This document shows positions 9,780 to 28,581 of a stretch of 64,000 bases of DNA, piece by piece. The notes beneath the pieces were generated by a model. It was not told where the DNA came from and did not search any database. It saw only the letters and a list, made by a program, of their open reading frames with translations. The stretch lies in the NCBI GenBank assembly GCA_050011875.1, contig JBEKIG010000004.1, positions 32,001 to 96,000 on the forward strand, read 5' to 3'. A program made the position numbers and the translations under genes. Position 1 is the first letter of the stretch, and each line of letters begins with the position of its first letter. This DNA comes from Nitrososphaeria archaeon (lineage in GTDB: Archaea; Thermoproteota; Nitrososphaeria; JACIWG01).

Positions 9780-9993
9780 AATGATCCCTCCGCGAACGGA
9801 TATGTAGGACTTCGATTTAATACCTCTCTCGTTGACAGACCAAGAGGCCCTAGCGGATTAGTGGTCTTCAATTGTTGACTGGCGTCCATACACCCGTTAA
9901 AAGAGCTCGTCTCCTTGGATGTAGGTGACGTCGATTGGGCGGGGATTAATGTTTAATTACGCTTTCGACAATTATTTTGCGGTTGCTGATTTG

Positions 9994-12594
9994 ATGGCAG
10001 ATGACCAAGAGATTCTGTCTCTCGGCGTTGACGACGTTTTAGCTCGGCTGAAGACATCCCGGTCTGGGCTTTCCTCACAGGAAGTTCAGAGCCGCATTGC
10101 AACGTACGGACCGAACGAGCTGGCTAAGAAGCAGAAACGCACCGGGCTTATTGAGATTCTGTACCACCTGAGAAATCCACTCGTGTTGATCCTCCTGATT
10201 GCGGGTTTAGTCTCCGGGTTTGTAGGAGACATAACAGACGCGGTCATAATTTTCACAATCGTGCTTCTCAGCATCGTTCTTGACGTGTATCAAGAATCCA
10301 AAGCTCAAAACGCCGCCGACGCACTCAAAGAAAGGGTCACCACAAAAGCAACAGTTCTCAGAAACGGCACCAAACAAGAAGTGAAACTTTCCGAAATCGT
10401 ACCAGGTGACATAGTCTATCTCATCGCAGGAGACCTCGTTCCCGCCGATTCCAGATTAATCGACGCAAAGGACTTGAACCTCAACCAGTCAGCATTAACA
10501 GGAGAAGCCTTTCCAGTAGAAAAGAACGCTGCCCCGCTTTCAGCTAGCACGTCCGAACTGACCAGCTGGAACAACTACGTATTCATGGGAACCTCAGTGG
10601 TCAGCGGAACCGGAACCGCCGTCGTGGCAAAGACCGGAAGCTTAACGGAATACGGAAAAATCGCCAAAGACCTCGTGGCCAAGACGCCTGAAACCGAATT
10701 CGAAAAAGGGCTTCGCCGATTCGGAGCCTTAATGACCGAAGTCACTCTTTTCCTCGTAGTTTTCGTCTTTTTTGTAAACGCATTTTTCTTTTCAGGCAGC
10801 CGCAGCATTCTGCAATCCCTGCTTTTCTCAGTGGCTCTTGCCGTGGGCTTAACGCCGGAGCTTCTGCCCATGATAATGTCCATCAACCTATCCAGAGGCG
10901 CCGTGGCAATGTCTAAAAAAGGCGTAATCGTGAAACGGCTGGCCTCAATTTCAAACTTCGGCAACATGGACGTTTTATGCACGGACAAAACCGGCACGCT
11001 CACAGAGAACAAGCTCACACTAAGCGAATACGAGGACCTGGAAGGAAAAGAAGCCCCAAAAGTGCTCATGTACGCTTACTTTAACAGCGTTTTTGAAGCA
11101 GGACTGAAAAGCTCTCTAGACGACGCCATGATTCAGTATAAGCAGTTCGACGTCACTGGCGTCCAGAAAATTGACGAAGTGCCCTTTGACTTCATCCGAA
11201 AACGCGTTTCAGTAGTGGCCGAGTACGAAGGACAAAGACTCCTAATCTCCAAAGGAGCCCCTGAAGAAATCCTCAAAATCTGCACCTACTGCGAAACTGA
11301 CGAAAACCTAACCGATCTAACAAACGTTTACCAAGCCAAGTTTGAGCAAAAATACAACGCACTCAGCGCTGAAGGATACAGGGTTCTAGCCGTCGCATAC
11401 AAGAAAGTCAAAGACGACAAAACACACTACACAATCACCGACGAAACCGACATGATCTTTCTAGGTTTCCTGTCTTTCCTTGACCCACCTAAAGAAAGCG
11501 CGAAAGAATCCATCCGTTTACTGGCCAGAGACGGCGTAGAACTCAAAATCGTCACCGGCGACAACGAACTAGTCACAAAAACAACCTGCGAACAACTGGG
11601 CTTCAACATAACAGGAGTCATCCTCGGAAACGACATCGCCCAACTCCAAAACGACGCCCTAGCCCGAGTCGTAGAGGAAAACAACATTTTCGCCCGCGTA
11701 AACCCCGCTCAAAAAGACAGAGTAATCAACGCCCTAAGAACCAACGGACACGTAGTAGGCTACATGGGAGACGGCATCAACGACGCCCCCTCCCTGAAAA
11801 CGGCAGACGTAAGCATATCAGTAGAAAACGCCGTTGACGTCGCCAAAGAATCCGCCGACCTCATACTCCTGCAGCCTGACTTAACCGTGCTCGATCAAGG
11901 CGTTCTGGAAGGCCGCAAAACCTTTGGCAACACCATGAAATACATCATGATGGGCGTCAGCTCAAACTTCGGCACAATGTTCAGCGTAGCCGGAGCCTCC
12001 CTGTTCCTAAACTTCCTACCCATGACAGCTATCCAAATTCTCCTAAACAACCTCCTATACGATCTTTCCGAAGCAACCATACCAACAGACAACGTAGACG
12101 AAGAATACATCGAAAAACCCAAAAAACTAGACATCTCATACATAAGAAGGTTCATGATGACCATGGGCCCCGTAAGCTCTATATTTGACTTCCTGACCTT
12201 CTTTTTGATGCTGGAAATCTTCAAAGCAGCAGTTCCCGTTTTCCAAACCGCATGGTTCGTAGAATCTCTTGTAACACAAACACTTGTGGTTTTCGTGTTA
12301 AGAACCAGAAAAACTCCATTCTACAAGAGCAAACCCGGGAAATTTTTGACGATAAGCAGCCTATCCGTCGCGGCGGTCGCCTTCATAATTCCCTACACGC
12401 CCCTTGCCACCATATTCAATTTTTCGCCTCCCCCACTAGCGTTCTACCCAGCCCTAGCAGGACTAATAGTCGCCTACCTTCTCCTAGTTGAGGTCGTCAA
12501 GAAATGGTTCCAAAAACATAACGCTTACCGCCTGGAACAAATCTATGCCCCGAAAAAAACAAAACCGGCCGACCAAACAACCAATAAGCTTTAA
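9994..12594 (+). CDS. mgtA: Magnesium-translocating P-type ATPase
   Basis: DKTGT, TGE, LTPELLP, PFDF, GDGINDAP, SSNFG and LLNNLLYD motifs. ATG at 9994 is more likely than GTG at 9925. Confidence 0.9.
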   Translation: MADDQEILSLGVDDVLARLKTSRSGLSSQEVQSRIATYGPNELAKKQKRTGLIEILYHLRNPLVLILLIAGLVSGFVGDITDAVIIFTIVLLSIVLDVYQESKAQNAADALKERVTTKATVLRNGTKQEVKLSEIVPGDIVYLIAGDLVPADSRLIDAKDLNLNQSALTGEAFPVEKNAAPLSASTSELTSWNNYVFMGTSVVSGTGTAVVAKTGSLTEYGKIAKDLVAKTPETEFEKGLRRFGALMTEVTLFLVVFVFFVNAFFFSGSRSILQSLLFSVALAVGLTPELLPMIMSINLSRGAVAMSKKGVIVKRLASISNFGNMDVLCTDKTGTLTENKLTLSEYEDLEGKEAPKVLMYAYFNSVFEAGLKSSLDDAMIQYKQFDVTGVQKIDEVPFDFIRKRVSVVAEYEGQRLLISKGAPEEILKICTYCETDENLTDLTNVYQAKFEQKYNALSAEGYRVLAVAYKKVKDDKTHYTITDETDMIFLGFLSFLDPPKESAKESIRLLARDGVELKIVTGDNELVTKTTCEQLGFNITGVILGNDIAQLQNDALARVVEENNIFARVNPAQKDRVINALRTNGHVVGYMGDGINDAPSLKTADVSISVENAVDVAKESADLILLQPDLTVLDQGVLEGRKTFGNTMKYIMMGVSSNFGTMFSVAGASLFLNFLPMTAIQILLNNLLYDLSEATIPTDNVDEEYIEKPKKLDISYIRRFMMTMGPVSSIFDFLTFFLMLEIFKAAVPVFQTAWFVESLVTQTLVVFVLRTRKTPFYKSKPGKFLTISSLSVAAVAFIIPYTPLATIFNFSPPPLAFYPALAGLIVAYLLLVEVVKKWFQKHNAYRLEQIYAPKKTKPADQTTNKL

Positions 12595-16824: not shown

Positions 16825-16900
16825 GCTGACCAGAGCATCAAGCTGATTAACAAAGCGATTTCAGCTTTAATTTACTTGTAAATAATGAACAGAGAAGAAT

Positions 16901-16921
16901 TGGTGCGGGCCCGGTGAGATT
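16901..16921 (-). repeat. Isolated tRNA 3'-end fragment (att-like scar)
   Basis: The - strand reads AATCTCACCGGGCCCGCACCA; 15 of 16 bases match tRNA-Arg 23641-23656 (AATCCCACCGGGCCCG). Confidence 0.6.
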
Positions 16922-17170: not shown

Positions 17171-18019
17171 ATGAAGTTTAAGTATTTAGTCCCTTACATC
17201 GTTATTACCGTATTCATATCTCAATTCGGTAAGGATTCGCTCAACTACTCATCGCCATTTTTCATGATGGGATTGAGATACTTGATAGCGGGCTCATTGT
17301 TGCTATTAATTTCGAGACGTTTTCTGTTTAATAGGGATTTAATAATTCTGTCGTTGCTTTCGGCAACAAGTACTGTCCTGTGGGCATACGGACTCGAATA
17401 CGTATCTTTTTCAGATTCAACCGTACTAAGTTACACAATGCCACTAATAACGATCTTCACCTCATGGGCACTGTTAAAGGAAAAAGGGACGCTCACCGAA
17501 GTAATAGGTGCCGTGATAGGTTTTTCAGGACTCGTAATCTTCTCAATACCTCTACTGACAGGTTTCCTTCTATTAGGTTCTCTACTAACCCTCGTTAACG
17601 CAGTTTTCTGGTCACTTTATTCAGTGTATTTCAGAAAAATGAAGGAAAGCAACCCAATCTCAGTCGTAGGCTCCCAGTTCATTCTGGGTTCGCTCTTCAT
17701 GCTGGTCCTTTCTCCAATTAATTTCAAGCTCAGTTTTACAAACGGATTCGTCATCGACCTACTTTACCTTTCAATCATAGGAGGAGCTATACAGTTCCTC
17801 TTATGGAACCTGATGATAAGAGGAGAAAAAATAAACATAGTCACGACTTCGGTTTTCGCAGTTCCAGCTCTCACTGTGATTGTACAAGCCTTGGAAACAC
17901 TAACGATCCCATCTGCACTGTCCATAATTGGTATTGCAATAATGTTCATAGGCATATATATTTCCCAGAGTGTAAACAAACCAAAAATCCCCAACAAGGG
18001 ATTGGCGTCGCAATCCTAG
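17171..18019 (+). CDS. DMT/EamA family transporter
   Basis: About 10 TM helices in two repeats; SPFFMMGLRY and LLKEK motifs. Confidence 0.85.
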   Translation: MKFKYLVPYIVITVFISQFGKDSLNYSSPFFMMGLRYLIAGSLLLLISRRFLFNRDLIILSLLSATSTVLWAYGLEYVSFSDSTVLSYTMPLITIFTSWALLKEKGTLTEVIGAVIGFSGLVIFSIPLLTGFLLLGSLLTLVNAVFWSLYSVYFRKMKESNPISVVGSQFILGSLFMLVLSPINFKLSFTNGFVIDLLYLSIIGGAIQFLLWNLMIRGEKINIVTTSVFAVPALTVIVQALETLTIPSALSIIGIAIMFIGIYISQSVNKPKIPNKGLASQS

Positions 18020-18334
18020 TTGGTTTGACGATGTCATCAAACTGAATGCCATAACAAAGAAACTTTCGCCAAAAAGAAAACTAGTTGTCGCAGTACTCTT
18101 AAATGATGAGGAAAATAAACTAATTCTTAGCAGGATAAGGGAAACAGAAAAGTAAGGAACGGAATCGTAATAGTAACTTTACATAATCGTACTCATCTGT
18201 AATAAGGCGATTTTAGACCTGCATAGAGTCGCAAGAATAGAAGCCAAACAAGGATTTGAATGATATTTGAATGATATCCACAGTTTCCTCATACTGTGAG
18301 GTGGCCATAAAGGACAATAAAAGATCGTTTCATT

Positions 18335-19513
18335 TCATTGAAGCGGTTTGCCACACTCGGGACAGAACTTCGTTGGGGAAGTTATCGCTGCGCCACAGTT
18401 CGGGCATGTCTTTCCCTGGCTCTGTTGAGCCGTCTGAGTGCCGCAGTTTGGACAGAACTTTGCGCCAGCTTGAAGAGGAGAACCGCATTGGGAGCAGAAC
18501 AGGCCTTTCTTTGTCTGGCTTGCTGGTTGTGCTTGGCTGGCCCCGCAGCTGGGACAGAAAGAGCTGTTTACTGGAATTAGTGCCCCACAGTTTGAGCAGG
18601 ACTTTGTTGGAGGTTGCGCCATCCCGCCCATCATTTGGCCGCCGACCGCGTATCCCATGCCAGCACCTGCGCCCAGCCCCACACCTATCCCTGCTCCCAC
18701 GCCAGCTGCTCCTGAGGGGTTCTTGGCCGCGTCGACCATGGCCTGTCCTGCTTGATATTGCATATAATTCACACCCAGAACCTGTAACTGAGAGCGGGTG
18801 TCGATCGCCTTCTGAACTTCGTCCGGCAGGCTAATTGTCAAGCCCGAAATCTTGTTTATCTCTACGCCATATTGCCCGAAGTTGTCGGGAGCAGTCGCGA
18901 GCACAACCTGTTCTATATTCGTGAGGTTTGCAGCTAAGTCGGTAACCTTTAGTCCCTGTGATTTCATCTTACCCATCCCGTTGTATACAAGGATAACCAT
19001 CTGCTCCTTCAGCCGTGATTCTACGTCTTCTGAGGTCTCGGCGTTGAAAGTGCCAACAAACTGGTTGATGAAGTTCTCAGGAGAGGAGACCCTCCATCTA
19101 TATTCTCCAAAGACGCGGAGGTTGACGATCCCGAAAGTTGGGTCCGTGAACTGGTACGGCTGTGTGCTGCCGAACTTGCCATCCATGTACCTCTTCTGGA
19201 TGTAGAAGACCTCGGCCTGCTGTACAACGCCGGTGAAGAATTTAAGTAGATTCCCGACTATGGGCGCGTTGAAGTCGGTAAGCGCATATCTGTTTGGCTG
19301 ATCGAAGTATGTCAGCACCTTACCATCCCTGTAAAAGGCCGCAATCTCGTCCTCCCTTACGACTATGTTATCGTTCAACCTGATGTTCCTCGGAACCTTC
19401 CACATCACGTTATTCTGCTTGTACTGGTCCTCCCAGTTTACGGTTATCGAACCCACAACGCTACCACCAGTGGGAGGTATATCGCTCGATTTCTTCTTGA
19501 ATAAGCTACTCAC
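18335..19513 (-). CDS. SPFH (band 7-like) protein with C-terminal zinc ribbons
   Basis: VVREDEIAAFYRDGK SPFH N-terminus, Gly-rich linker, and three CxxC...FCxxCG ribbons. Confidence 0.85.
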   Translation of the reverse strand: MSSLFKKKSSDIPPTGGSVVGSITVNWEDQYKQNNVMWKVPRNIRLNDNIVVREDEIAAFYRDGKVLTYFDQPNRYALTDFNAPIVGNLLKFFTGVVQQAEVFYIQKRYMDGKFGSTQPYQFTDPTFGIVNLRVFGEYRWRVSSPENFINQFVGTFNAETSEDVESRLKEQMVILVYNGMGKMKSQGLKVTDLAANLTNIEQVVLATAPDNFGQYGVEINKISGLTISLPDEVQKAIDTRSQLQVLGVNYMQYQAGQAMVDAAKNPSGAAGVGAGIGVGLGAGAGMGYAVGGQMMGGMAQPPTKSCSNCGALIPVNSSFCPSCGASQAQPASQTKKGLFCSQCGSPLQAGAKFCPNCGTQTAQQSQGKTCPNCGAAITSPTKFCPECGKPLQ

Positions 19514-19523
19514 TCCAATTCAC

Positions 19524-20078
19524 CTACGTCAGCAATATACCCTCTATCGCTTTCATCCTTGCTTCCCACTTTTGCTTGAAGTCCACAATGGCAGCGTTGA
19601 CTTTCGACAGCCCGGTTTGGATCGAAGCAGGAGCTGAGGTGTCGTAAACGAGACTTGATGGAGAGGTAATCGCTAGGAGCTGCACCGCTGAACTTACAAA
19701 GTTGTAATCGTAATCATAAAGTTTGTTGAGCCTATCCTCGTTGATGCTTATCGTAGCAACGAAGCCGGAGTAGCCCTGCTGGGCGTGTCTCACCTCACCG
19801 CTCAGTTGCTGAACCTGCGAGATCAACGAACCAACCGATGTCAGATTCGTATAATCACCAGCAGTAACCATTTGCTTCCTCACATCCTCTAGGTTTCCCT
19901 TCGTTTGGTTGAGCTTGTCCGCTACCTGGTTGCGCAGGAGGTTGTCAGAGACGCGAAGATCCTCTAACGTCCTGTAGCCTTTGAGCCCTGGAACCAGTAG
20001 TTCAAGCTTCTTCTGAGGACCCCTACTTTCCTCAACCTGTTCTCTTATGTCTGGATTATCTTGTGACAATTTGATCAT
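19524..20078 (-). CDS. Hypothetical helical protein, operonic with the SPFH gene
   Basis: 10-bp gap to the SPFH gene; PGLKGY...LR.SDNLLR and LYDYD motifs; coiled-coil character. Confidence 0.7.
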   Translation of the reverse strand: MIKLSQDNPDIREQVEESRGPQKKLELLVPGLKGYRTLEDLRVSDNLLRNQVADKLNQTKGNLEDVRKQMVTAGDYTNLTSVGSLISQVQQLSGEVRHAQQGYSGFVATISINEDRLNKLYDYDYNFVSSAVQLLAITSPSSLVYDTSAPASIQTGLSKVNAAIVDFKQKWEARMKAIEGILLT

Positions 20079-20341
20079 CTATAAACCTATTTCGAAAGTT
20101 TCAAAAGCTATAGCCTAGTATAAATATCTTTTGCTCATCCCCTTATAGTTATGCATTTGCATAGAAAATCTACCGATCAGTCCTACTCATGCCTTACCGC
20201 CAGCTCTGTTCAGTATCATAATAGCTTAGTGGGGTGGATGTCTTTGCTTGGCTCAGAAGATGCCAGAGAGCACTATCCTGATGCTAAGATCATCCTGCGG
20301 ATGCTAAAACCGGACAGGCAGTAGGAAGGAGAGCTACCTCG

Positions 20342-21406
20342 ATGGAGCGAAAAGGAGTCAGCTACGACGTAGGACGCGTGATGGGGTTCAATTGGCGCCC
20401 CGTCTTTGATCCAAAGATCGTCCATCGCGAGCTTGAAATCATCAAGGATGACCTGCACTGCAACGCTGTGAGGATCTGCGGCCGCGACATCGAACGGGCG
20501 ACCGCCTGCGCCCAAGCTGCGATGGAACAGGGACTGGAAGTCTGGCTCTCACCAGAGCTTTGGGACAAGAGCCCGCCGGCGACCCTTGAGTACATCACGA
20601 AGGCCGCATCCGCGGCAGAGACCCTACGAAAGCATTGGCCGGAGAGGATAGTGTTCAGCATCGGCTCCGAGCTGACACTCTTCATACAGGGGATTGTAGA
20701 AGGAAGAAACTTCACGGCCCGTCTGTCGAACCCTAGCCTTATTCCCCGCGTGAAGGCGGGCGAGCACAACAAGCCGCTAAACGACTTCCTGACCAAAGCG
20801 AACGCGGCCGTTAGATCTGTGTTTCACGGTAAAGTAACCTACGCTTCCTTGGTCTGGGAGGCGGTCGACTGGAACCTTTTCGACTACGTAGGAGTCGACC
20901 ATTACCGGACGACCAAGATTGAGGACAAGTACGTTGGGATGTTGAAACCTTCGTTCTCTCACGGGAAACCGGTGGTCATAACAGAGTTTGGCTACGCTAC
21001 GACCCACGGAGGCATAGGCGAGGAAGGCTTCTTGGGCTCGTCAGGCCTCGGTGGAAACATAATCGACCTGAAGTCGCAGTTCCTCCACTACAAAGTACCG
21101 GTCTTGGGTCAGTTCGTCCGACCACACCTCAACGGCGACCATGTTCGCGACGAGGCGTGGCAAGCTCACAAGCTCATCGAAACGTTGGGAATACTGGACA
21201 GTGCGGGGGTTGACGGAGCGTTCGTGTTCCAGTTTATTTCACAAATCACTCCCTACAGCGATGATCCTCATTACGACCTAGATATGGCGAGCTCCAGCTT
21301 GGTGAAATACTACGAGCACGGAAGACACGGCACAACCTATCCAGATATGACGTGGGAGCCTAAGGAGTCCTTCAGGGCCGTCGCCGACTATTACGCCAAT
21401 CATTAG
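20342..21406 (+). CDS. Glycoside hydrolase-like TIM-barrel protein
   Basis: GVSYD..DLHCNAVRI..GSE..TYA..GVDHY..KPVVITEFG pattern (clan GH-A-like); visibly GC-richer than the host genes. Confidence 0.65.
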   Translation: MERKGVSYDVGRVMGFNWRPVFDPKIVHRELEIIKDDLHCNAVRICGRDIERATACAQAAMEQGLEVWLSPELWDKSPPATLEYITKAASAAETLRKHWPERIVFSIGSELTLFIQGIVEGRNFTARLSNPSLIPRVKAGEHNKPLNDFLTKANAAVRSVFHGKVTYASLVWEAVDWNLFDYVGVDHYRTTKIEDKYVGMLKPSFSHGKPVVITEFGYATTHGGIGEEGFLGSSGLGGNIIDLKSQFLHYKVPVLGQFVRPHLNGDHVRDEAWQAHKLIETLGILDSAGVDGAFVFQFISQITPYSDDPHYDLDMASSSLVKYYEHGRHGTTYPDMTWEPKESFRAVADYYANH

Positions 21407-21450
21407 GAGTTGCTGATACTGCTTTGCAAAGGCCTCAATTCCCTGTGCGA

Positions 21451-21665
21451 TTGAATCAGGAGACGGTGATTGGTGGCGTCTTCTAGATATCATCGCTGGA
21501 GTCCTTCGTCGGACAGGCTGTAGCGCAGTCAGCTTGAAAGGGAACTCAGTACAGCCTGATTTGCAACGCCATCAGCGATCTTGGTGTAACGTAACGGTTT
21601 GCTGGACGGTCAATAACGGTGGTGTTTCGGGTTACTATTGCTCCCCCGTGCACAATAGATGATAA
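21451..21665 (+). pseudogene. DUF998-like membrane protein remnant
   Basis: IGGVF*ISSLESFVGQAVAQSA*KGTQYSLICNAISDLGVT*, then GYYCSPVH in another frame. Two stops fall where Trp is expected; the YS..N.ISDLG motif is present. Confidence 0.5.
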
Positions 21666-21697
21666 CATATCACGGCGCTCAACGAAAGGATTAGCGC

Positions 21698-22198
21698 CTA
21701 AATATTTAAAATACCTAAAAGGTCCACTTTAGACTCTTGCGATAATCTTTGAATAAGATCCGATAACTCCTTACCTTTTCTTTTCAGTTCCCTCTTGGAT
21801 ACAGTATACTTCATTGGGCAGATATCATCGACACTCATTCCTTTCCCTACCTGATAGATCACCGGATAAATGTAGCATCCCAGAGGCCTGTCCTTATAGA
21901 CCTTACAACTATGATTCTGGATATTATAGAAAAAACAGTGCCCATGATCATTCCGCAGACAAAAAAAACCTTGCCTATCACGAAATACGAACTTCTGACA
22001 ATCATAACCTAACCTTTCCAATCGTTTAACGTCTTCAAATGAGAGCATCATCTTGGTTTTCTGACAACATATACCGCAAAAGGAACATTTCATAAAGTGA
22101 TTTAACCCCCCAACCTCCATATTTAACTTTTGAATTTCAGAGGCGGTTGTATCCATAAAATCCTTTTTTATAAATAAAATACAAGCTACTGATCCCAT
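21698..22198 (-). CDS. YkgJ-family (CxxCxxCC) Fe-S/Zn cluster protein
   Basis: CSFCGICC, CFFY and CKVYKDRPLGCYIYP motifs; the real start is probably downstream. Confidence 0.8.
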   Translation of the reverse strand: MGSVACILFIKKDFMDTTASEIQKLNMEVGGLNHFMKCSFCGICCQKTKMMLSFEDVKRLERLGYDCQKFVFRDRQGFFCLRNDHGHCFFYNIQNHSCKVYKDRPLGCYIYPVIYQVGKGMSVDDICPMKYTVSKRELKRKGKELSDLIQRLSQESKVDLLGILNI

Positions 22199-22916: not shown

Positions 22917-23111
22917 TTATATAAGATTTAACTCCTTAGCACATTGGAGACAGTGATATTTTCTTGGAGCACCTTTTGAGATGATTGTTTCACCTATGTT
23001 GAAATCTCTTTTACATTTGTAGCATCTTAGACCATATTCCTTCGCATAGTGACGATGTGAAAGCCTCGACATTATTGTTGCCGTTAATTTGATCTTTATA
23101 GTTCCTGTCAT
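22917..23111 (-). CDS. Small zinc-finger protein
   Basis: CYKC...HCLQC in 64 aa. Confidence 0.55.
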   Translation of the reverse strand: MTGTIKIKLTATIMSRLSHRHYAKEYGLRCYKCKRDFNIGETIISKGAPRKYHCLQCAKELNLI

Positions 23112-23581
23112 TTAGGTCAGAGATTTCGTGAAGAATGCTTTATCGCCGTACTTATACTTATAATGGTAGTTATATTTTTGTAGTTTTGCCATTACATTTT
23201 CTTTTTTTAGATACATCTTCCTGTTTTACGGAACAATTAATTTTGAATTCTGTTCCTTTAACCTTTTTAGAATTTTAACTTGTTATTGTTTTTTTAGTTG
23301 CAGAAAAGTTTAAACTACGTCAACGGCTCTTTTGATTCTTCGACTCCATCGCCTTTCTTGTCCAATTTTTTTGAGGAAAGCTTTGGCTTTCCCTGGACAA
23401 CTCCATACCCTAACAGAACCGGTTCTTATCTAGCAACCTCTTTGATCTGGATTACTCCATATTTATATTTCGAGGCTTCATCCTTTAATATCACCTTGAG
23501 TACCCTGTCCAAAGGACTTTCACCCTTAAGGTTCTCCAGCACCCAATAAAGCTGCCTTCCAGACATGTAATCGATTATGAT

Positions 23582-23656
23582 GGGCTCGTGGCTCAGTCTG
23601 GATAGAGTACAGGCCCTCTAAGCCTGGGGTCGTGGGTTCAAATCCCACCGGGCCCG
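23582..23656 (+). tRNA. tRNA-Arg (anticodon TCT), intronless
   Basis: Acceptor stem GGGCTCG/CGGGCCC, anticodon arm CAGGC-CCTCTAA-GCCTG, T arm GTGGG-TTCAAAT-CCCAC. Confidence 0.95.
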
Positions 23657-23810
23657 AACCCAATTATTCTCTGTTAATTATTTACCAGTAAATTAATGCT
23701 AAAATCCCACATTAATTGGAAGCATTAGATGGCAAAGATCCAATAAAAATTGGGTCCGGTTCGCTCAATGCACTCACAAACTAACTAAGAAAGACTTTCC
23801 ATCTTTATAG

Positions 23811-24130
23811 AAACTTTACCTATTTTGTTAAGGTTTCCTTTACCTATTTTGTTAAGGAAAAAATGCTGAACAGACTTTGATAAATTCTGTTCAAACAGAT
23901 ATTTTTTAACAAAATTAGTGCTAACCGTCCGCTGACTTGCTCGAACAGATCCCCCTATGTTCAAATGATTATCACTTTGCTCTCATGCAGAGCGCATTTA
24001 ACTTGAGCAGATAAAAAAAGTTAGCGCTAAATATTTTTCCGAAAAATCAGTTGAACAGAACACAATTGCACACAAATGACCTGTTGTAAAACCTTAACAG
24101 ATCCGGTAAAGGTTATTTTAAAGTGAACTT
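23811..24130 (+). ncRNA. Long-hairpin structured unit A (putative ncRNA or folded ssDNA)
   Basis: Nested stems 23885-23894/24051-24060, 23915-23925/24020-24030 and 23937-23944/24003-24010, plus a terminal inverted repeat; diverged paralogue of unit B. Confidence 0.6.
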
Positions 24131-24393
24131 CAAAAAAATGCGTACATCAAAAATAGACAGAAAGAACTTCCGGCTACATGTTCGAGAAGAAGGAGCTATT
24201 CTGAAAAATTGATAAGGGGATCTGAAATAAAAAGCGACAGTACCTTACTTAGATCAAAGGGGCAATCATTTTACTAAACCTTTTTAGCGAACCCCCATAA
24301 GTTGGAGCCTTCTTCCAGTTAAAATCATAGCGATAGGTTTTTGCAAAACTTCCCCTAACGTCAAGCCGGGAACAGCATCTACCTACATTTAAC

Positions 24394-24714
24394 AAACCTT
24401 TACCGATTTTGTTAAGGTTTCCTTTACATATTTTGTCAATGAAAAATCCGCTGATAATCGTGGATAAAGTTTGCTCATGCAGATATTTTTTTGAACAATT
24501 AGCGCAGACGGTCTGCTGATTTGCTCGGACAGATCCCCCTGTGTATTATTTGTTATCATATTGCTCCCATGCAGGACGGTTTTAAGTTGAGCAAACAAAA
24601 ACTGTTTGTGCAAACTTTTTTGTCTAAAAATCAACTGAGCAAACTATTTTTGCACCTAGTTGATTGAACGTTGTGCATTAACAGATTTCGTAAAGGTTCT
24701 TTGATAGTGAACTT
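24394..24714 (+). ncRNA. Long-hairpin structured unit B (diverged copy of A)
   Basis: Collinear with A; stems such as 24468-24477/24636-24645 keep their pairing through compensatory changes. Confidence 0.6.
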
Positions 24715-24780
24715 GTAACAAAAGGAATGTACGGCCCGTGAGACACTTTGTTTTGATCGACTAACTAGAATTTATGGGAA

Positions 24781-24832
24781 ATGTTCAAAAAGTGGGTTTA
24801 CGGTCATGACCACAGACATTAATTTTGAACAT
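24781..24832. repeat. 52-bp quasi-palindrome P1
   Basis: ATGTTCAAAA AGTGGGTTTACG GTCATGAC CACAGACATTA ATTTTGAACAT. Confidence 0.85.
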
Positions 24833-25076
24833 TATTGCCTAAAAGGAAGTTATAATTTAGTATCAATTTCTTCTCATTAATTGCGCCACTTACATCCACT
24901 ACACCTATTATAGAAGAGTTAAATTTCTTCCAAATATGCTTTGCCATATCAATAGACGAATGATAGGAAGGTGATTGCAACTACACCAAATATCAGGAAG
25001 AAAAAGAAAATACGACTAAACCAATTATCTGAGGAATTGGAAAACTCATGGTATTGTAGGTTAACTGGACCTTAAA

Positions 25077-25128
25077 ATGTTCAAAAATGGTGACTGCTGT
25101 CATGACCGGGGAAGCAGATTTTGAACAT
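25077..25128. repeat. 52-bp quasi-palindrome P2
   Basis: ATGTTCAAAA ATGGTGACTGCT GTCATGAC CGGGGAAGCAG ATTTTGAACAT. Confidence 0.85.
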
Positions 25129-25182
25129 AGTTCTCCATTTTAGGTAAAGTTTCCATTTAGATCGTTAACTAACTAAGAAAAA

Positions 25183-25460
25183 AACCTTTACATATAGCGT
25201 AATAATTAATCATCAGAGGCCGTTTAGAATGTTCAAGCCGATCTCCAAACAGGAAAAACGCGCAGCCCTATTATAGCAGATTCCCCAATAAACCCCAGTA
25301 TTCCTTAGGAAAACAGGCATGTTCCTCTATATATAGCAAAAAATTTTTTTTCTGTTTGGTGAACAGACGTTTGAACATTTGAACTTAATTATTACGCTAA
25401 GAGTAAAAGTTAATTTAATTATTACACTACAAGTAAAAGTTAAACACTAACTAAGTGAAC
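25183..25460 (+). ncRNA. Long-hairpin structured unit C (more divergent family member)
   Basis: 5' arm 25183-25209 pairs with 25385-25411 (duplicated at 25415-25441). Inner stems AATGTTCAAGC/GTTTGAACATT and CCAAACAGGA/TTCTGTTTGG. Shares AACCTTTAC, CAGATYCCCC and GTAAARGTT..AGTGAAC with A and B. Confidence 0.5.
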
Positions 25461-25607
25461 ATGCAAAAGGAAGATAAGTCCAAAGAGGAAATGAAGCCCT
25501 ATGGTTCAGGGCTGATGGGCCGGCAGGTGAAGCGATCAAAGAGGAACGAGATAAACCTCCAACCCTCAAAGACAATGCCAGACAGCTAACTTATCACTAG
25601 ACTTTAA

Positions 25608-25658
25608 ATGTTCAAAATGGTGATTACTGTCATGACTGTGGATACAGATTTTGAACAA
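25608..25658. repeat. 51-bp quasi-palindrome P3
   Basis: ATGTTCAAAA TGGTGATTACT GTCATGAC TGTGGATACAG ATTTTGAACAA. Confidence 0.85.
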
Positions 25659-25881
25659 GACGACCTTAATGTAAAAAATAAGTTTTGTCCGTTATACAAT
25701 GATCTTAATGCTACAAGAAATGTTAAAAAAAATTAGAGTCAGACTTATAGTCGAACAATGTAGAATCCCATTTTAAAATAATAGAATCATTACTTAACTT
25801 CTATAGAATCTTCAATTGGAATATTAATCTAGTTCTCCGAGAATCAATCAAAACCTTTATTGCTTCAAATGCTTAAAAAAA

Positions 25882-26223
25882 TTATTGCGGGTTTGTACAG
25901 CCGTATATCAACCCTGTAAAAATTAAGCCGAAAGCGAATATGCCAAAAGCTAACAAATCAGTGTTTTCTGGTGGATCTACTACAAGACCTTTGTAGCATC
26001 TGCAGAACTCCTTCTGTTTAACGTTTTTTGGTGGGGTCATCCACTTGTTTGTCTCTTCTAAATCTCTGTACACGTAGACTTGCACAGTTCGGGGGTCTAA
26101 ATTGCATACTTCACCCACTTGATTGATAGTGTATTCCTTATCTTTCTCTAAACTTCCTTCTAAACATTTTACGAATTTCTTTATTGGTGGTTCATAAGGT
26201 CCTCTTGACATCATTGAATTCAC
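25882..26223 (-). CDS. Small HTH-like protein with a C-terminal TM helix
   Basis: YTINQVGEVCNLDPRTVQVY (HTH-like) and LLAFGIFAFGLIFTGLIYG (TM). Confidence 0.55.
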   Translation of the reverse strand: MNSMMSRGPYEPPIKKFVKCLEGSLEKDKEYTINQVGEVCNLDPRTVQVYVYRDLEETNKWMTPPKNVKQKEFCRCYKGLVVDPPENTDLLAFGIFAFGLIFTGLIYGCTNPQ

Positions 26224-26375
26224 ACCTAGGTGTAATTTTGTAAATATAATTTAAACTTTTCCTAAGGGCATGTACAGCAATAATATAAACTCCATAATAT
26301 CTTTGGGTTCCGAAAGTAAAACGAACGATAGTGATTCTACTTCACTACCTTTTACTCGAAGGACTTTTGGAAATT

Positions 26376-26427
26376 ATGTTAAGAAAAGGAGAGTGTCGTC
26401 ATGACCGCAGGCAACGATTTTGAACAT
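26376..26427. repeat. 52-bp quasi-palindrome P4 overlapping the RBS and start of the topoisomerase-like gene
   Basis: ATGTTAAGAA AAGGAGAGTGTC GTCATGAC CGCAGGCAACG ATTTTGAACAT; ATG 26401 lies in the central GTCATGAC. Confidence 0.8.
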
Positions 26428-28581
26428 GATGATGACATCACGAACAAAATCAGAGCACGGCCACGGATCTACGATTTTTTCACTCTCGATGGCGTGCAGC
26501 GGCTTACCGGGTGCACACCAGAAAAATTCCTCTTGTTCATGTCAAAGGAATTAACCGATAACGCCCTCGATAAACGGAATGTAAAGAATGTCAAGGTCGA
26601 GATCGTTGAAGAAGGCAAAATATTGATTCTGTCAGTATCTGATGACGGAAAACCAACGTTTGATAGTGAATCTCTGACTAAGATCCTAGACTTTGAGAAA
26701 GCGCCCTCCGAGAAAAGAGGAAAAAAGTGTGTAAAAAGAGGAGTACTTGGGAACGCACTACAAAGTTGCTTCGGGATTTCTTATGCAACATTCAACGCAG
26801 ACAACAGACCTGAATACACTGCAGAGGTATGGGGAACCAAAAAATTTTTCATAAAGTTGGATCCCAGTAAGACATCATTTCAAGAAGAACCACGGGAAAA
26901 CGATGGCTTTACAGTCATTCGATTCAAACTACCAACTGGCAATTATGTTTCACCTTTTAGAATTTTAAGAACTATCGCCCTGCTTAACCTCTATGTCACT
27001 ATCTCTTACAAGGATAAAGAATTAGAACACACTTCCGCAGCTTTGGAATGTATCAAACCTCCCATACAAAACGAAGTTGATATACATTGCTATAGTTATG
27101 CAGAATTTAGCGACTTTGTCGATGAGATACAGCATAGTACAGTGGAGCAGTGTGTGACGATCTTCAAAGGCCTAAAGAACCGTTTCTACGCAAAAAAGGT
27201 CCTCGAGGATGCAGGTATTAAGCCTGGAACGAGGCTTTCAGATCTTAGCTCTAAAGAACGTCAATGCCTTTTCAGTACGATAAAAAAGGCTGCGAAGACC
27301 CTAAAAGCCATCCAACTACCTGTAGTCGGCAAAGATTCATTCGAGCAGCATGGTATTGTGAACTACTTTGTAAAGCGTGGTACATTGAGCGATAAAGAGG
27401 GGAGAATCGTGCCCTATGTTGTCGAGGCCGCCTCCTTCGAAGACAAGGATGAAGAGATTTTTGAGACAGTAAACTTCACGACATCGATACATCATCCCTT
27501 CACCATGTACGTTTTCACTGAAGGAGAAAAAAGAGTAAAATTTAGTGATCTCACGAAGGACAAAGGGCTAAACGTGCTTATCCACCTAGTGTGTCCAGCG
27601 ATCACATGGCTCAGCGCAAGCAAGGGCGAAATGGATATTCACCCCTTTCAGGATGCGATATTTTCAGCAATCAGACATGTCTGCAGGCAGAACAAGATGA
27701 CAGGATTTGATTCAGAAACTTTGATTTCACTTACCAACAATGTTATGAGTTCCTACCCGACATTTAACTTTACGCTCAGGCAGGTCTTCTACCTTCTGGT
27801 GTCTCATCACGGTTACCCTAACGAGAAACAAGCCTACAACAAGCTAGGTAAAGCTCTTGTCAAGGCAAGACAAGAAGGGACAGTAGATGCGGATAGAATT
27901 CTGGACTTGAGCAGGCCAGAGTACATAAATAACAGCTCGTATCAATCGTTCCTAGAGCGGGCCCGATCAGACTTCAAGACACTGATTAACGACTTTGATT
28001 TAGATAAATGGAGTCTACAACCGATATACTGTGAAACATGGATAGAAAAGGAGGCCCTCTCCAGAGTCATTGCACCGGTCTGCAAGAAATATAGTGTAAA
28101 CGAAATTGTTGGACGTGGCTATTCATCCTACACACAAATTCGAAGAGCTGTCAAAAGACTTCCAGAGGATAAGAAGGTAATCATACTCTATATTGGCGAC
28201 TTTGACCCGCCTGGACTTCACATAGAAGAGAAGCTAAAAGAAAGGCTCCTTGATGAAGCAAGTAGAAGAGGTAAACACTTACAACTGGATGTGAGGAGGG
28301 TCGCCTTAACCTATGAGCAGATTCAACAGTATCACCTTCCTGCCTCTCCCTTGAAAAAGTCAGGCCAAAAGCGTCAAGAATACCTAGAAAAATATGGAAG
28401 TGACGTATGGGAGGTTGATGCCTTAAGTCCTGAAGTCCTTATAAAAACTTTAGAGGAAGAAATTAGAAGTTTAATCGATTGGGAGATCTGGAACAAAAAA
28501 GAGGAAGAGGTCGAATACTTTAGGGGACTACTAAGAGAAGGCTTGGGACGATTTCTAGACGAACTGAACGCTTTCGAATGA
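26401..28581 (+). CDS. Single-chain type IIB topoisomerase-like protein (Topo VIII-like: GHKL ATPase + transducer + WHD + Toprim)
   Basis: KELTDNALD, VSDDG and GVLGNAL (GHKL); TLRQVFY (catalytic-Tyr WHD); WIEKEAL, GRGYSS and GDFDPPG (Toprim). Confidence 0.8.
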   Translation: MTAGNDFEHDDDITNKIRARPRIYDFFTLDGVQRLTGCTPEKFLLFMSKELTDNALDKRNVKNVKVEIVEEGKILILSVSDDGKPTFDSESLTKILDFEKAPSEKRGKKCVKRGVLGNALQSCFGISYATFNADNRPEYTAEVWGTKKFFIKLDPSKTSFQEEPRENDGFTVIRFKLPTGNYVSPFRILRTIALLNLYVTISYKDKELEHTSAALECIKPPIQNEVDIHCYSYAEFSDFVDEIQHSTVEQCVTIFKGLKNRFYAKKVLEDAGIKPGTRLSDLSSKERQCLFSTIKKAAKTLKAIQLPVVGKDSFEQHGIVNYFVKRGTLSDKEGRIVPYVVEAASFEDKDEEIFETVNFTTSIHHPFTMYVFTEGEKRVKFSDLTKDKGLNVLIHLVCPAITWLSASKGEMDIHPFQDAIFSAIRHVCRQNKMTGFDSETLISLTNNVMSSYPTFNFTLRQVFYLLVSHHGYPNEKQAYNKLGKALVKARQEGTVDADRILDLSRPEYINNSSYQSFLERARSDFKTLINDFDLDKWSLQPIYCETWIEKEALSRVIAPVCKKYSVNEIVGRGYSSYTQIRRAVKRLPEDKKVIILYIGDFDPPGLHIEEKLKERLLDEASRRGKHLQLDVRRVALTYEQIQQYHLPASPLKKSGQKRQEYLEKYGSDVWEVDALSPEVLIKTLEEEIRSLIDWEIWNKKEEEVEYFRGLLREGLGRFLDELNAFE

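What the first reader, a model, noticed from the sequence alone, without database searches (positions are those of the whole stretch)
23657..28581. Candidate new system: tRNA-linked array of structured units and palindromic sites leading into a single-chain type IIB topoisomerase
Seen in sequence: right after tRNA-Arg the order is hairpin unit A, degenerate site (about 24178-24228), unit B, P1, P2, unit C, P3, HTH-TM ORF (- strand), then P4 overlapping the start of the Topo VIII-like gene. The region therefore looks like repeats of a module (about 300-nt fold followed by a 52-bp palindrome containing an RBS and ATG), and only the last palindrome leads into a full gene. I recognised no integrase, transposase, RT or Cas gene in the window. 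Established: Topo VIII-type fusions occur on mobile and integrated elements, and Topo VI-type enzymes make 2-nt staggered breaks through tyrosine adducts. Inference: the enzyme may act with these cis elements as an RNA-associated or site-specific recombination/mobilisation system. Alternatively, the array records repeated integration of related elements at one hotspot.
Basis: partly seen in the sequence, partly recalled or inferred. Interest (0 to 1): 0.9.

Follow-up and report, generated by a model that had tools for sequence, protein, structure and literature searches.

The report
Palindrome array before a fused topoisomerase
An archaeal genome island carries an unusual one-piece DNA topoisomerase whose gene start sits inside a 52-base palindrome that is repeated three more times upstream, which hints that this enzyme recognises a specific DNA site, while the neighbouring 'structured units' are just scattered repeats.

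Summary
The sequence features are real, but the proposed 'module' system is not supported. Units A and B belong to a structured repeat family with 15 full copies scattered over this genome. It occurs in only 1 of 28 loci that encode relatives of the enzyme. Unit C is an unrelated MITE-like repeat.

The four 52-bp palindromes P1-P4 are the interesting part. They occur nowhere else in the genome. P4 is centred on the start codon. Between two sister genomes their arms and core show 0 of 56 differences, against 12% in the flanks. One P-to-P segment is present in one genome and absent in the other.

The 726-aa protein is a complete single-chain type IIB topoisomerase. Its cleavage half is of the viral 'Mini-A' type, not the Topo VIII type. 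Mini-A with a fused ATPase half was not described in the papers I read.

The gene lies in a genus-specific island. It has been swapped for a deeply diverged allele (dS 1.96, against 0.13-0.19 in host genes).

Best reading: P sites are promoter-proximal operator or binding sites, probably for the enzyme itself. This is inferred, not shown.

The parts
23581..23657 (+). tRNA-Arg (anticodon TCT). It forms the left edge of the island.
   Evidence: ARAGORN; Rfam tRNA, 62 bits. A second tRNA-Arg(TCT) at G000:C7:38319-38395 is also followed by an A/B-type unit.
23658..23712 (+). Post-tRNA repeat of about 55 nt. Elsewhere in the genome it is preceded by decayed 3' parts of tRNA-Arg, so it is att-like.
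   Evidence: Copies lie at C1:70122, C11:117424, C21:7209 and 10271, C30, C31 and C4:48903(-). Five of these seven are preceded by a recognisable 12-22 nt remnant of the tRNA-Arg 3' end; the C30 and C31 copies are not. In the sister genome the stretch from window 23636 on is present without a tRNA.
16857..16915 (-). Inverted copy of the tRNA-Arg 3' fragment plus the 55-nt repeat, 6.7 kb upstream.
   Evidence: BLAST hit at C4:48857-48903, 89%; flank shows CACCGGGCCCG. Not followed up.
23802..24122 (+). Unit A: a member of a dispersed family of structured repeats.
   Evidence: nhmmer score 242. The DNA fold has z = -5.4. 87% identical to C10:87890-88230.
24389..24708 (+). Unit B: a second member of the same family, in tandem with A (584-nt spacing). 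The full-length copy spans about 24200-24790.
   Evidence: the repeat finder D1, D3, D4; nhmmer score 250; 73% identical to A.
24781..24832 (.). P1, a 52-bp palindrome.
   Evidence: An orthologous copy in L001 has 0 changes in arms and core and 3 in one spacer.
25077..25128 (.). P2, a 52-bp palindrome.
   Evidence: Its left flank and left half match the single hybrid P site of L001.
25176..25460 (.). Unit C: a MITE-like repeat of about 280 nt with inverted ends. It is unrelated to A/B.
   Evidence: Inverted repeat I2, 46 nt, 72%. Copies at G000:C1:171680-171958 and three in G001, each in different flanks. Absent from the P locus of L001.
25608..25658 (.). P3, a 51-bp palindrome (A-run one base shorter).
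   Evidence: Its right half and the 235 nt downstream match the hybrid P site of L001 at 89%.
25882..26223 (-). 113-aa ORF with a hydrophobic C-terminus, transcribed divergently from the topoisomerase gene. Possibly winged-helix; weak evidence.
   Evidence: no Pfam or PHROG hit; Atlas TM 0.36-0.43. Only its C-terminal 16 residues match an 81-aa ORF in L001.
26376..26427 (.). P4, a palindrome centred on the start codon of the topoisomerase gene. Its left arm is degenerate (ATGTTAAGAA).
   Evidence: A palindrome with the same centre occurs at the start of the homologues in L001, L009, L022 and L023.
26401..28581 (+). 726-aa single-chain type IIB topoisomerase: GHKL ATPase, H2TH and transducer (aa 1 to about 430), then 5Y-CAP/WHD and Toprim of Mini-A type (aa about 437-715).
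   Evidence: Pfam PF21180; PDB Topo VI-B; motifs in alignment A1; AF2 pLDDT 83.6; Foldseek Topo VI-B E 1e-21; phrog_6247 E 2.5e-60; phage Mini-A-like hits E 1e-37; tree.
25893..28400 (.). Segment replaced by a deeply diverged allele relative to the sister genome (small ORF, P4 and most of the topoisomerase gene).
   Evidence: About 70% identity inside, against 89-97% outside. dS 1.96 against 0.13-0.19 for Tyw2 and ABCE1, and 0.11 for the last 54 codons.

Best explanation
The stretch between tRNA-Arg and the host gene Tyw2 is a genus-specific accessory island at a site of frequent insertion and recombination.

Its one substantial gene encodes a complete single-chain type IIB topoisomerase. It has an ATPase (B) half fused to a cleavage (A) half of the Mini-A type. 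The host keeps its own Topo VI.

P4 is the promoter-proximal operator of that gene. It is a two-fold symmetric 52-bp site whose dyad lies on the start codon. P1-P3 are three further copies upstream that are kept by selection.

The most likely binder is the two-fold symmetric enzyme dimer itself. In that picture the A dimer sits on the central GTCATGAC and the B halves touch the outer ATGTTCAAAA arms. Binding at P4 would shut off its own transcription. The extra sites would concentrate or load the enzyme on this DNA.

Recombination between P sites adds or removes the segments between them. Units A/B (a strand-specific structured repeat) and C (a MITE-like repeat) are separate dispersed elements that landed in the same hotspot.

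Shown: the anatomy, the uniqueness of the sites, the constraint on them, the presence/absence difference between genomes, the allelic replacement, and the protein class. Inferred: which protein binds P, the repression, and any cleavage.
For: The sites:
- P sites occur only here in the 2.64-Mb genome; 0 are expected by chance.
- Between sister genomes the arms and core show 0 of 56 differences, against 7 of 48 in the spacers (Fisher p = 0.0035) and 70 of 573 in the flanks (p = 0.0015).
- In 5 of 20 homologue loci (window, L001, L009, L022, L023; the enzymes are 48-68% identical) the best palindrome within 40 nt of the start is centred exactly on the start codon, and GTCATGAC is present there.
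- The coded N-terminal residues 1-20 are disordered in the model (pLDDT below 50) and variable or absent in most relatives. The conserved TTTTGAACAT is therefore better explained at DNA level.
- Each P has an A/T-rich box about 24-30 nt before its ATG (my reading).

Geometry: Topo VI A2B2 is two-fold symmetric on 74 bp of bent DNA, with H2TH/stalk contacts on the arms (PMC13040014, passages read).

The enzyme:
- It is intact and under purifying selection: dN/dS 0.10; catalytic motifs are invariant in A1 (R460, Y464, E549, G605) or in at least 90% of sequences (the ELxDNALD box, D600, D602).
- It is accessory: the host Top6A scores 187 bits at C7:21904-22398.

P-to-P difference: the hybrid P site of L001 joins the left flank of P2 to the right flank of P3.

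The units are unrelated to the enzyme: 15 full copies in G000, a hit in 1 of 28 homologue loci, found only in the genus.
Against: - No binding, cleavage or transcript data exist. No RNA run was listed.
- Type II topoisomerases are generally not sequence-specific.
- 15 of 20 homologue loci have no such palindrome at the start, including relatives at about 52% identity such as L008. The site is therefore not a family-wide requirement.
- A host or element repressor could bind P just as well. Only the small neighbouring ORF was examined, and it is not conserved.
- The constraint test rests on one pair of genomes and 56 positions. The split into arms and spacers was chosen from this genome's own copies.
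- The TATA-like boxes are my reading, not a scan.
Confidence: 0.5

Rival explanations
1. P sites are active site-specific recombination sites, like att sites or integron attC/attI. Segments between P sites are cassettes inserted or excised as circles at P4, by the topoisomerase-like enzyme or by an unseen recombinase.
For: - A whole P-to-P segment (about 530 nt) is present in the window and absent in L001, with a hybrid P at the junction.
- The inter-P segments are unrelated to each other.
- P4, next to the gene, is the most divergent copy, as attI is in integrons. The integron comparison is recalled.
- No integrase was found among the 20 window ORFs scanned.
- Arms and core are constrained.
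Against: - Type IIB enzymes reseal the ends they cut; strand exchange has not been described for them (recalled).
- The 'cassettes' lack convincing genes: the ORF after P3 shows 9 amino-acid differences in 34 residues between the sisters (my translation of the alignment), and c2 is largely a MITE.
- There are only 4 sites in one genome and 3 in the other.
- No P site lies elsewhere in the genome, and no full P site in IMG/VR (0 among the 80 listed matching stretches checked, of 84 reported).
- No junctions appear in public contigs.
- Slippage or homologous recombination between repeats of about 57 nt at 86% identity would give the same deletion.
Confidence: 0.15
2. P1-P3 are dead relics: leftover promoter and 5' ends from earlier copies of the topoisomerase module. 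They were left behind by serial integration and replacement at this hotspot and have no present function.
For: - The module has been replaced by a deeply diverged allele between the sister genomes.
- Similarity of P3 to the gene runs 12 nt beyond the palindrome (FEQDD against FEHDD).
- Different source alleles would share arms and core but differ in spacers.
- The region is full of repeats and tRNA fragments.
Against: Since the two genomes split, arms and core of P1 and P2/P3 have 0 of 56 changes, while the flanks have 12.2% (p = 0.0015). Relics should drift like the flanks.
Confidence: 0.15
3. The P array is a replication-origin or partition-type set of iterated binding sites of a former plasmid-like element, and the topoisomerase is its replication or segregation factor.
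For: - Repeated protein-binding sites lie upstream of, and overlap the promoter of, the gene for the element's DNA enzyme. This resembles iteron/operator layouts of plasmid replicons (recalled).
- Topo VIII and Mini-A are confined to mobile elements (PMC7671362, sections 11-12 read).
- Homologues lie beside integrases in L011 and L014 (the L014 call is my reading of the printed ORF) and beside R-M and OLD genes in L022.
Against: - No replication initiator or partition gene is in the island.
- Spacing of the sites is irregular: 296, 530 and 769 nt.
- The more distant homologues have a single site, not an array.
Confidence: 0.1
4. One reading: structured RNAs from units A/B/C act together with P sites and the enzyme in RNA-associated recombination or mobilisation.
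For: - A/B units have a real, strand-specific fold with compensatory changes.
- A distant second enzyme of this kind (C11) also lies about 0.8 kb from an A/B unit and a tRNA-fragment repeat.
- The half-site-like word TGTTCAAA occurs 4 times in units A, B and C beyond the P arms; 0.23 occurrences are expected over the whole region.
Against: - 12 of the 15 full A/B copies lie away from either enzyme gene.
- 27 of 28 homologue loci have no unit.
- C is a different family.
- L001 has one unit of a different subtype where the window has two.
- The enzyme shows no RNA-binding domain.
Confidence: 0.05

Closest known systems
Mini-A, the stand-alone Topo VI-A-like proteins of viruses (Takahashi et al. 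2019, PMC7671362)
   Same: - The T2BI box is xWELDAL: VWEVDAL here, and 15 of 16 family members carry it.
- phrog_6247 matches over nearly its whole profile (E 2.5e-60).
- 84 phage records match at up to E 1e-37.
- The A module forms one clade with 20 stand-alone proteins (SH-aLRT 95).
   Different: - It carries a full GHKL-H2TH-transducer half on the same chain. The paper reports that no B partner was found for Mini-A.
- The context is an archaeal chromosomal island, not a recognisable virus.
Topo VIII (Gadelle et al. 2014, seen only in a search listing; Takahashi et al. 2019)
   Same: - Single chain, with the B half before the A half.
- Accessory, and found in mobile-element-like contexts.
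   Different: - The T2BI box is not RVELNAM.
- The A module falls outside the RVELNA clade.
- tblastn against plasmids found no match to the B half and only Mini-A-length matches.
- The archaeal Topo VIII listed in 2019 were all Euryarchaeota; the named relatives here are Nitrososphaeria/Thaumarchaeota and one Bathyarchaeales MAG.
Topo VI holoenzyme on DNA (M. mazei cryo-EM, PMC13040014)
   Same: - Same fold for the B half (Foldseek E 1e-21 to 9o0g_B).
- A two-fold symmetric complex that contacts a long bent duplex at the centre and on both arms. This matches the centre-plus-two-arms layout of P.
   Different: - Topo VI chooses sites by deformability, not by a defined sequence.
- It has two subunits and is a housekeeping enzyme.
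Integron attI/attC cassette arrays (recalled)
   Same: - An array of imperfect palindromes next to the gene of a DNA-breaking enzyme.
- A segment bounded by two sites differs between relatives.
   Different: - No tyrosine recombinase.
- No cassette genes.
- The sites overlap a start codon.
- Only 3-4 sites.
MITEs and other dispersed structured repeats (recalled category)
   Same: Units A/B and C are short, non-coding, multi-copy and genus-restricted, and have inverted ends or a long hairpin.
   Different: - A/B shows strand-specific G-U pairs and compensatory changes, more like a transcribed RNA.
- No transposase or target duplication was identified.

Membership tests
Type IIB topoisomerase superfamily | GHKL (Bergerat) ATPase fold with N-box and G-boxes | tested here: met
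   ELxDNALDK, DDG and GxLGNALQ are conserved in A1. PF02518 is on record for 7 homologues. Foldseek to Topo VI-B gives E 1e-21.
Type IIB topoisomerase superfamily | H2TH and transducer between the ATPase and the cleavage half | tested here: met
   phmmer aligns aa 192-344 to Topo VI-B 193-354 (E 0.014). The fold match runs over 478-547 columns.
Type IIB topoisomerase superfamily | 5Y-CAP/WHD with catalytic tyrosine, plus Toprim acidic residues | tested here: met
   R460, Q461, F463, Y464, E549 and G605 are invariant, and D600 and D602 are present in at least 90% of sequences. PF21180 scores 24.8 bits against a cut-off of 24.1. The assignment of Y464 as the catalytic residue is by motif position only.
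Type IIB topoisomerase superfamily | ATP-dependent strand passage; double-strand breaks with a 2-nt stagger | not testable with these tools
   Needs enzyme assays.
Topo VIII | Single chain, B half fused to A half | tested here: met
Topo VIII | T2BI box RVELNAM | tested here: not met
   The box is VWEVDAL. 31 of 75 long representatives carry RVELNA-type boxes, but this family does not.
Topo VIII | A module within the Topo VIII clade | tested here: not met
   In the quick ML tree, RVELNA plus RIEIDSVL form a separate clade (97). The window protein sits in the Mini-A clade (95). The tree used a short search with no bootstrap.
Mini-A | T2BI box xWELDAL | tested here: met
   15 of 16 members of A1 carry it. 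The motif definition comes from PMC7671362, section 16.
Mini-A | About 300 aa, 5Y-CAP and Toprim only, no B half | tested here: not met
   The protein is 726 aa with a full B half.
Mini-A | Encoded by viruses or proviruses | tested here: inconclusive
   No viral hallmark gene was recognised in the Pfam scans of island and neighbouring ORFs; only P0001 and P0002 were scanned against PHROGs. No relative was found in IMG/VR. Some homologues lie beside integrases or defence genes.
Integron-like cassette array | Adjacent site-specific recombinase, and gene cassettes each ending in a palindromic site | tested here: not met
   No integrase among the scanned ORFs. The inter-P segments lack conserved ORFs.
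tRNA-integrating archaeal element | Direct repeat of the tRNA 3' part at the far end, plus an integrase | tested here: not met
   The 22-nt tRNA 3' end (up to 3 mismatches) has no second copy in the window. A shorter, decayed fragment lies inverted at about 16.9 kb, and others lie on other contigs. No integrase was found.
MITE (unit C) | Short, non-coding, multi-copy, terminal inverted repeats | tested here: met
   5 copies in two genomes, each in different flanks. Inverted ends of 46 nt at 72%. Target-site duplication was not examined.

The most novel reading that the evidence does not exclude
P1-P4 are the cognate recognition and DNA-gate sites of a sequence-specific type IIB topoisomerase, here a Mini-A that still has its ATPase half. 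The dimer would cleave at the AT dyad of GTCATGAC, repress its own gene at P4, and use the upstream sites for a site-directed DNA transaction on its element: loading, decatenation, or exchange of the segments between sites. This would be the first known pairing of a type IIB enzyme with a specific cis site. It would also give a handle on what Topo VIII and Mini-A enzymes do for mobile elements.
Probability: 0.2. Interest if true: 0.85.

Novelty: new variant of a known kind. Interest (0 to 1): 0.55.

Why it matters
[quoted passage not shown] It is also open whether Mini-A ever had an ATPase partner (PMC7671362, section 19).

This family supplies a natural Mini-A-type cleavage module fused to a full B half. 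On the quick tree it is sister to the sampled stand-alone Mini-A proteins. That bears on the 'lost its B half' and 'never had one' scenarios.

The conserved palindrome on the start codon, repeated upstream, gives a concrete DNA substrate to test with purified enzyme. Such a substrate has been missing for this enzyme group.

If the enzyme proves site-specific, it would be unusual among type II topoisomerases. If not, the array is still a clear case of a selectively maintained operator cluster in an archaeal island.

Tried and rejected
- Rfam scan of 23000-27000 at E up to 1: only the tRNA was found. No known RNA family explains A, B or C.
- First related-loci run with the single protein found nothing. 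The alignment query was needed.
- My first P pattern had the wrong spacing and found nothing. It was corrected.
- IMG/VR scan for a P half-site: 84 matching stretches were reported and 80 listed as loci. None of the 80 I checked carries a full palindrome. They are chance matches.
- IMG/VR scan for the protein family: none.
- Public runs: three peat-metagenome runs hold the stretch. No RNA holder was listed.
- Laying their contigs gave no joints. One contig spans 24407-27137 unchanged, and a third study holds identical pieces across the P2/unit C and c2/P3 junctions. Contigs cannot show rare variants, so this says nothing about excision.
- Recurrent neighbours of the A/B copies: a 72-aa ORF and 309-350-aa proteins. 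These have no significant Pfam hits (only sub-cut-off matches at E 0.013-0.06) and no PHROG hits. My impression that the latter have a ParB-like N-terminus is reading only and was not tested.
- The 3-kb C21 segment between two direct copies of the tRNA fragment has no integrase.
- The distant paralogue on C11 shows no P-like palindrome at its start (my reading).
- The idea that A/B units are origins of replication or known ribozymes was considered and dropped. Nothing beyond the repeated motifs supported it.
DNA for the closest homologues P0005 and P0007 (N-termini MTLG..NFEH and MTVS.NDFE) therefore could not be read.
- Supplements are closed. Supplementary Tables S1-S3 of PMC7671362 list the Topo VIII and Mini-A sequences and might include relatives of this family. 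I could not check.
- 'Not in print' rests on four searches and on passages or sections of PMC7671362, PMC6563490, PMC11894792, PMC11302465 and PMC13040014. PMC4117785 was seen only in a search listing.

Full report
**What is there**

The window comes from a Nitrososphaeria-type archaeon; its closest relative in the genome collection is a Nitrososphaeria MAG. tRNA-Arg(TCT) lies at 23581-23657. Downstream, in order, lie:
- a 55-nt repeat;
- two tandem units, A and B, 584 nt apart;
- palindromes P1 and P2;
- unit C;
- P3;
- a 113-aa minus-strand ORF;
- P4, which contains the ATG of a 726-aa ORF.

The P sites read ATGTTCAAAA-N12-GTCATGAC-N12-TTTTGAACAT. Allowing 3 mismatches gives 3 matches in the window, against 0 in 100 shuffles. 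P3 is the fourth copy; it has a 1-nt shorter A-run. The next genes downstream are ordinary host genes, Tyw2/Trm5 and ABCE1.

By my reading of the sequence it matches 14 of 28 consensus positions and lacks GTCATGAC. The same stretch recurs in the tail of another copy of the A/B repeat.

**The protein**

The evidence for the two halves is as follows.
- Pfam finds the Topo VI-A/Spo11 Toprim domain.
- phmmer against PDB aligns aa 192-344 to the H2TH/transducer region of Topo VI-B.
- An alignment of 16 relatives conserves the ATPase N-box and G-boxes, an RQxFY motif with invariant Y464, and the Toprim E549 and DxD.
- An AlphaFold model built on that alignment has mean pLDDT 83.6. Its N-terminal part matches Topo VI-B structures at E 1e-21.

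It is therefore a complete single-chain type IIB topoisomerase. The host has its own Top6A elsewhere (187 bits), so this enzyme is accessory.

**Which kind of type IIB enzyme**

Takahashi et al. (PMC7671362; sections 11, 12, 16 and 19 read) separate the three subfamilies by a C-terminal 'T2BI' box:
- Topo VIII: RVELNAM.
- Mini-A: xWELDAL.
- Topo VI: R/KxExxA/S.

The window protein has VWEVDAL, and 15 of 16 family members have the Mini-A form. Further support for the Mini-A assignment:
- The cleavage half (aa 437-715) matches a phage protein family over nearly its full profile (phrog_6247, E 2.5e-60).
- It matches 84 phage records at up to E 1e-37, and 77 of those matches cover at least 80% of the query.
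- In plasmids, 50 records match. All 12 listed rows cover only aa 421-705, and no record covers 80% of the query. The best two include an archaeal plasmid gene annotated 'Topo Mini-A'.

A search with the ATPase half alone against 1.84 billion representatives found 381 relatives at E up to 0.001. Among the 75 of these that are at least 600 aa long, the T2BI boxes divide as follows: 31 RVELNA-type, 10 WELDAL-type, 9 RIEIDSVL-type, 6 KxEANA-type and 19 unclassified by my patterns.

A quick maximum-likelihood tree of 68 cleavage modules was built.
- 20 of 21 fused WELDAL proteins group with 20 stand-alone Mini-A-like proteins in one clade (SH-aLRT 95).
- That clade is separate from the RVELNA plus RIEIDSVL clade (97).
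- The fused core (19 rows, support 99) is sister to the stand-alone set (91).
- One fused row is basal and one is a long-branch outlier.

Caveats on the tree: the search was short and there are no bootstraps; the root is on one long Top6A branch; the stand-alone rows were the best hits to my own query; and 'stand-alone' was judged by length only.

The paper states that no B partner was found for Mini-A, and it lists archaeal Topo VIII only from Euryarchaeota. My four literature searches found no description of a B-fused Mini-A.

**The 'structured units'**

An HMM of units A/B finds 15 full-length copies plus fragments across nine contigs of this genome.
- By DNA similarity there are 14 matches in this genome and 5 in the one other genome of the genus. 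None was found in 59 further relatives searched.
- Of the 28 loci that encode relatives of the enzyme, only the sister genome's locus contains a unit.
- The fold is real. On 13 copies, 30 predicted pairs include 15 with changes on both sides.
- 90.8% of cells pair, against 77.9% in shuffles (0 of 500 shuffles reach it). The covariation score is 0.384 against 0.181. Slid controls pair at only 22-40%.
- Two pairs are G-U in 8 and 10 of 13 copies, so the structure belongs to one strand. This favours an RNA or a single-stranded intermediate.

Unit C is different. It is a repeat of about 280 nt with inverted ends. It has one more copy in this genome and three in the sister genome, each in different flanks.

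The units are thus dispersed, genus-specific repeats, not partners of the enzyme. One residual link remains. A distant second single-chain enzyme on contig C11 (824 aa, 27-33% identical in three blocks) also lies about 0.8 kb from an A/B unit and a tRNA-fragment repeat. This suggests that both genes arrived on related elements.

**The palindromes**

- P sites occur only at this locus in the 2.64-Mb assembly.
- Of 20 homologue loci with a readable 5' end, five have their best local palindrome centred exactly on the start codon, with GTCATGAC there. These are the window, L001, L009, L022 and L023; the last three are one lineage, and their proteins are 48-52% identical to the window's. The other 15 loci do not.
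- Only the window and L001 have extra copies upstream.
- The right arm encodes residues (D)FEH in a tail that the model leaves disordered (residues 1-20 below pLDDT 50) and that most relatives lack. The conservation is therefore more plausibly at DNA level.

**Comparison with the sister genome**

L001 belongs to the only other genome of the genus. It has one A/B unit of another subtype, P1, a single site where the window has P2 and P3, no unit C, and P4.
- Its single site joins the left flank of P2 to the right flank of P3. The 530-nt P-to-P segment has thus been gained or lost by recombination between P sites.
- Arms and core of these sites show 0 of 56 differences between the two genomes. 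Spacers show 7 of 48 (Fisher p = 0.0035) and flanks 70 of 573, or 12.2% (p = 0.0015).
- The flank value is close to the synonymous divergence of the neighbouring host genes (dS 0.13-0.19).

P1-P3 therefore appear to be maintained by selection, not decaying relics. This rests on one pair of genomes.

**History of the locus**

- Host genes downstream are 93-97% identical between the two genomes, while the topoisomerase gene body is about 70% identical.
- The gene body has dS 1.96 and dN/dS 0.10. Its last 54 codons return to dS 0.11.
- The segment from about 25893 to 28400 (small ORF, P4 and most of the gene) is thus a deeply diverged allele. It was exchanged by recombination, and it is kept functional in this genome.
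- The sister's copy has a 1-nt deletion that breaks the frame. This may be real or a sequencing error.
- In four genomes of other genera of the family, ABCE1-Tyw2 synteny is kept. Within the 10-11 kb beyond Tyw2 there is no topoisomerase, no tRNA, and none of the window's upstream genes.
- The 55 nt after the tRNA recur at seven other places, five of them preceded by a decayed 3' part of tRNA-Arg. In L001 such a fragment, not a tRNA, precedes the array, next to arsenic-resistance genes like those beside the C11 copy.
- These look like attachment-site remnants of elements that target tRNA-Arg.
- No integrase was found in the window ORFs scanned. Relatives of the enzyme do lie beside integrases (L011; L014, my reading of the ORF) or beside restriction-modification and OLD genes (L022).

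**How it most likely works**

The site is two-fold symmetric, with a conserved 8-bp centre and two 10-bp arms 21 bp out. Its dyad lies on the start codon, and an A/T-rich box sits about 24-30 nt upstream (my reading). That is what an operator covering the promoter and start of a gene looks like.

The layout also fits a type IIB dimer. The 2026 M. mazei Topo VI structures show a two-fold symmetric A2B2 complex on 74 bp of bent DNA. The A subunits sit at the centre and the H2TH/stalk of B contacts the arms (PMC13040014, passages read).

I therefore favour the enzyme itself as the binder. It would repress its own gene at P4 and be held at P1-P3. Recombination between P sites would reshuffle the segments between them. 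None of the binding, repression or cleavage is shown. A separate repressor is equally compatible with the sequence data.

They are weighed in their own sections.

**Novelty and verdict**

The 'module' system is not supported. Two things remain of interest.
- A Mini-A-type type IIB topoisomerase with a fused ATPase half, from Nitrososphaeria/Thaumarchaeota and (one) Bathyarchaeales MAGs and unnamed metagenome contigs. It bears on an open question about the origin of Mini-A.
- A locus-specific, constrained palindrome array tied to its start codon. It offers a concrete substrate for testing whether this enzyme is site-specific.

I rate it a new variant of a known kind, with moderate interest.

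Noticed in passing
G000: 15 full copies, for example C10:12126-12440, C2:113782-114094, C7:38687-39009, C11:117992-118295; window 23802-24122 and 24389-24708: A genus-specific dispersed repeat of about 320-580 nt with a three-tier hairpin. It shows compensatory changes and strand-specific G-U pairs, and has no Rfam match. It may be a new structured RNA or a mobile element with a single-stranded stage. Tandem pairs occur twice (window A/B and C4:204402-205256).
   Followed up: partly
G000 C10:12497-12715, C11:21483-21701, C7:53217-53435, C4:204213-204413: A conserved 66-72-aa ORF (50-79% identity; no significant Pfam hit, no PHROG hit) lies directly after four of the A/B-type units.
   Followed up: partly
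G000 C1:70122, C11:117424, C21:7209 and 10271, C30:3217, C31:5945; window about 16857-16915 (-): The 55 nt that follow tRNA-Arg recur at seven other sites, five of them preceded by a decayed 3' part of tRNA-Arg. On C21 two direct copies bracket a 3-kb segment with a Schlafen/AlbA_2 gene and no integrase.
   Followed up: partly
L029:7058-9532 (-) = G000:C11:119057-121531: A second, very distant single-chain type IIB-like gene (824 aa). It has an ATPase N-box, transducer and Toprim blocks at 27-33% identity, and no Pfam hit. It lies beside arsenic-resistance genes, a tRNA-fragment repeat and an A/B unit.
   Followed up: partly
Representatives P0024-P0169: Single-chain type IIB proteins in metagenomes fall into at least four T2BI-box classes: RVELNA 31, WELDAL-like 10, RIEIDSVL 9 and KxEANA 6, with 19 unclassified, out of 75 proteins of at least 600 aa. 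RIEIDSVL and KxEANA are not among the T2BI boxes described in section 16 of PMC7671362, which I read.
   Followed up: partly
window 26401-28581: The protein on record for this gene is 475 aa (P0003, 100% identical, covering 65%). It starts at residue 252 of the ORF, so the public gene call appears truncated at the 5' end and misses the ATPase domain.
   Followed up: no
L001, about 6414 (aligned to window 26815): The sister genome's topoisomerase gene has a 1-nt deletion that splits it into a 156-aa ORF and a 595-aa protein (P0004). This is either a pseudogene or an assembly error.
   Followed up: no
L003:6021 and L004:6057: Two paralogous homologues in one Thaumarchaeota MAG share a 16-of-26 palindrome centred 35 nt inside the coding region, over the conserved RQHPRV motif. 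This may be chance or another cis site.
   Followed up: no
G000 C6:77195-78247, C10:14306-15340, C1:172022-172951: Related 309-350-aa proteins with no family assignment recur 0.06-1.9 kb from repeat copies; one lies next to the second copy of unit C. A ParB-like N-terminus and a nuclease-like C-terminus are my reading only.
   Followed up: partly
window 9001-12000 and 18001-22000: Two stretches have about 48-52% G+C against a background of about 40%. They contain a P-type ATPase with tRNA-Ser, and an SPFH/zinc-ribbon gene cluster. These are possibly further foreign DNA.
   Followed up: no
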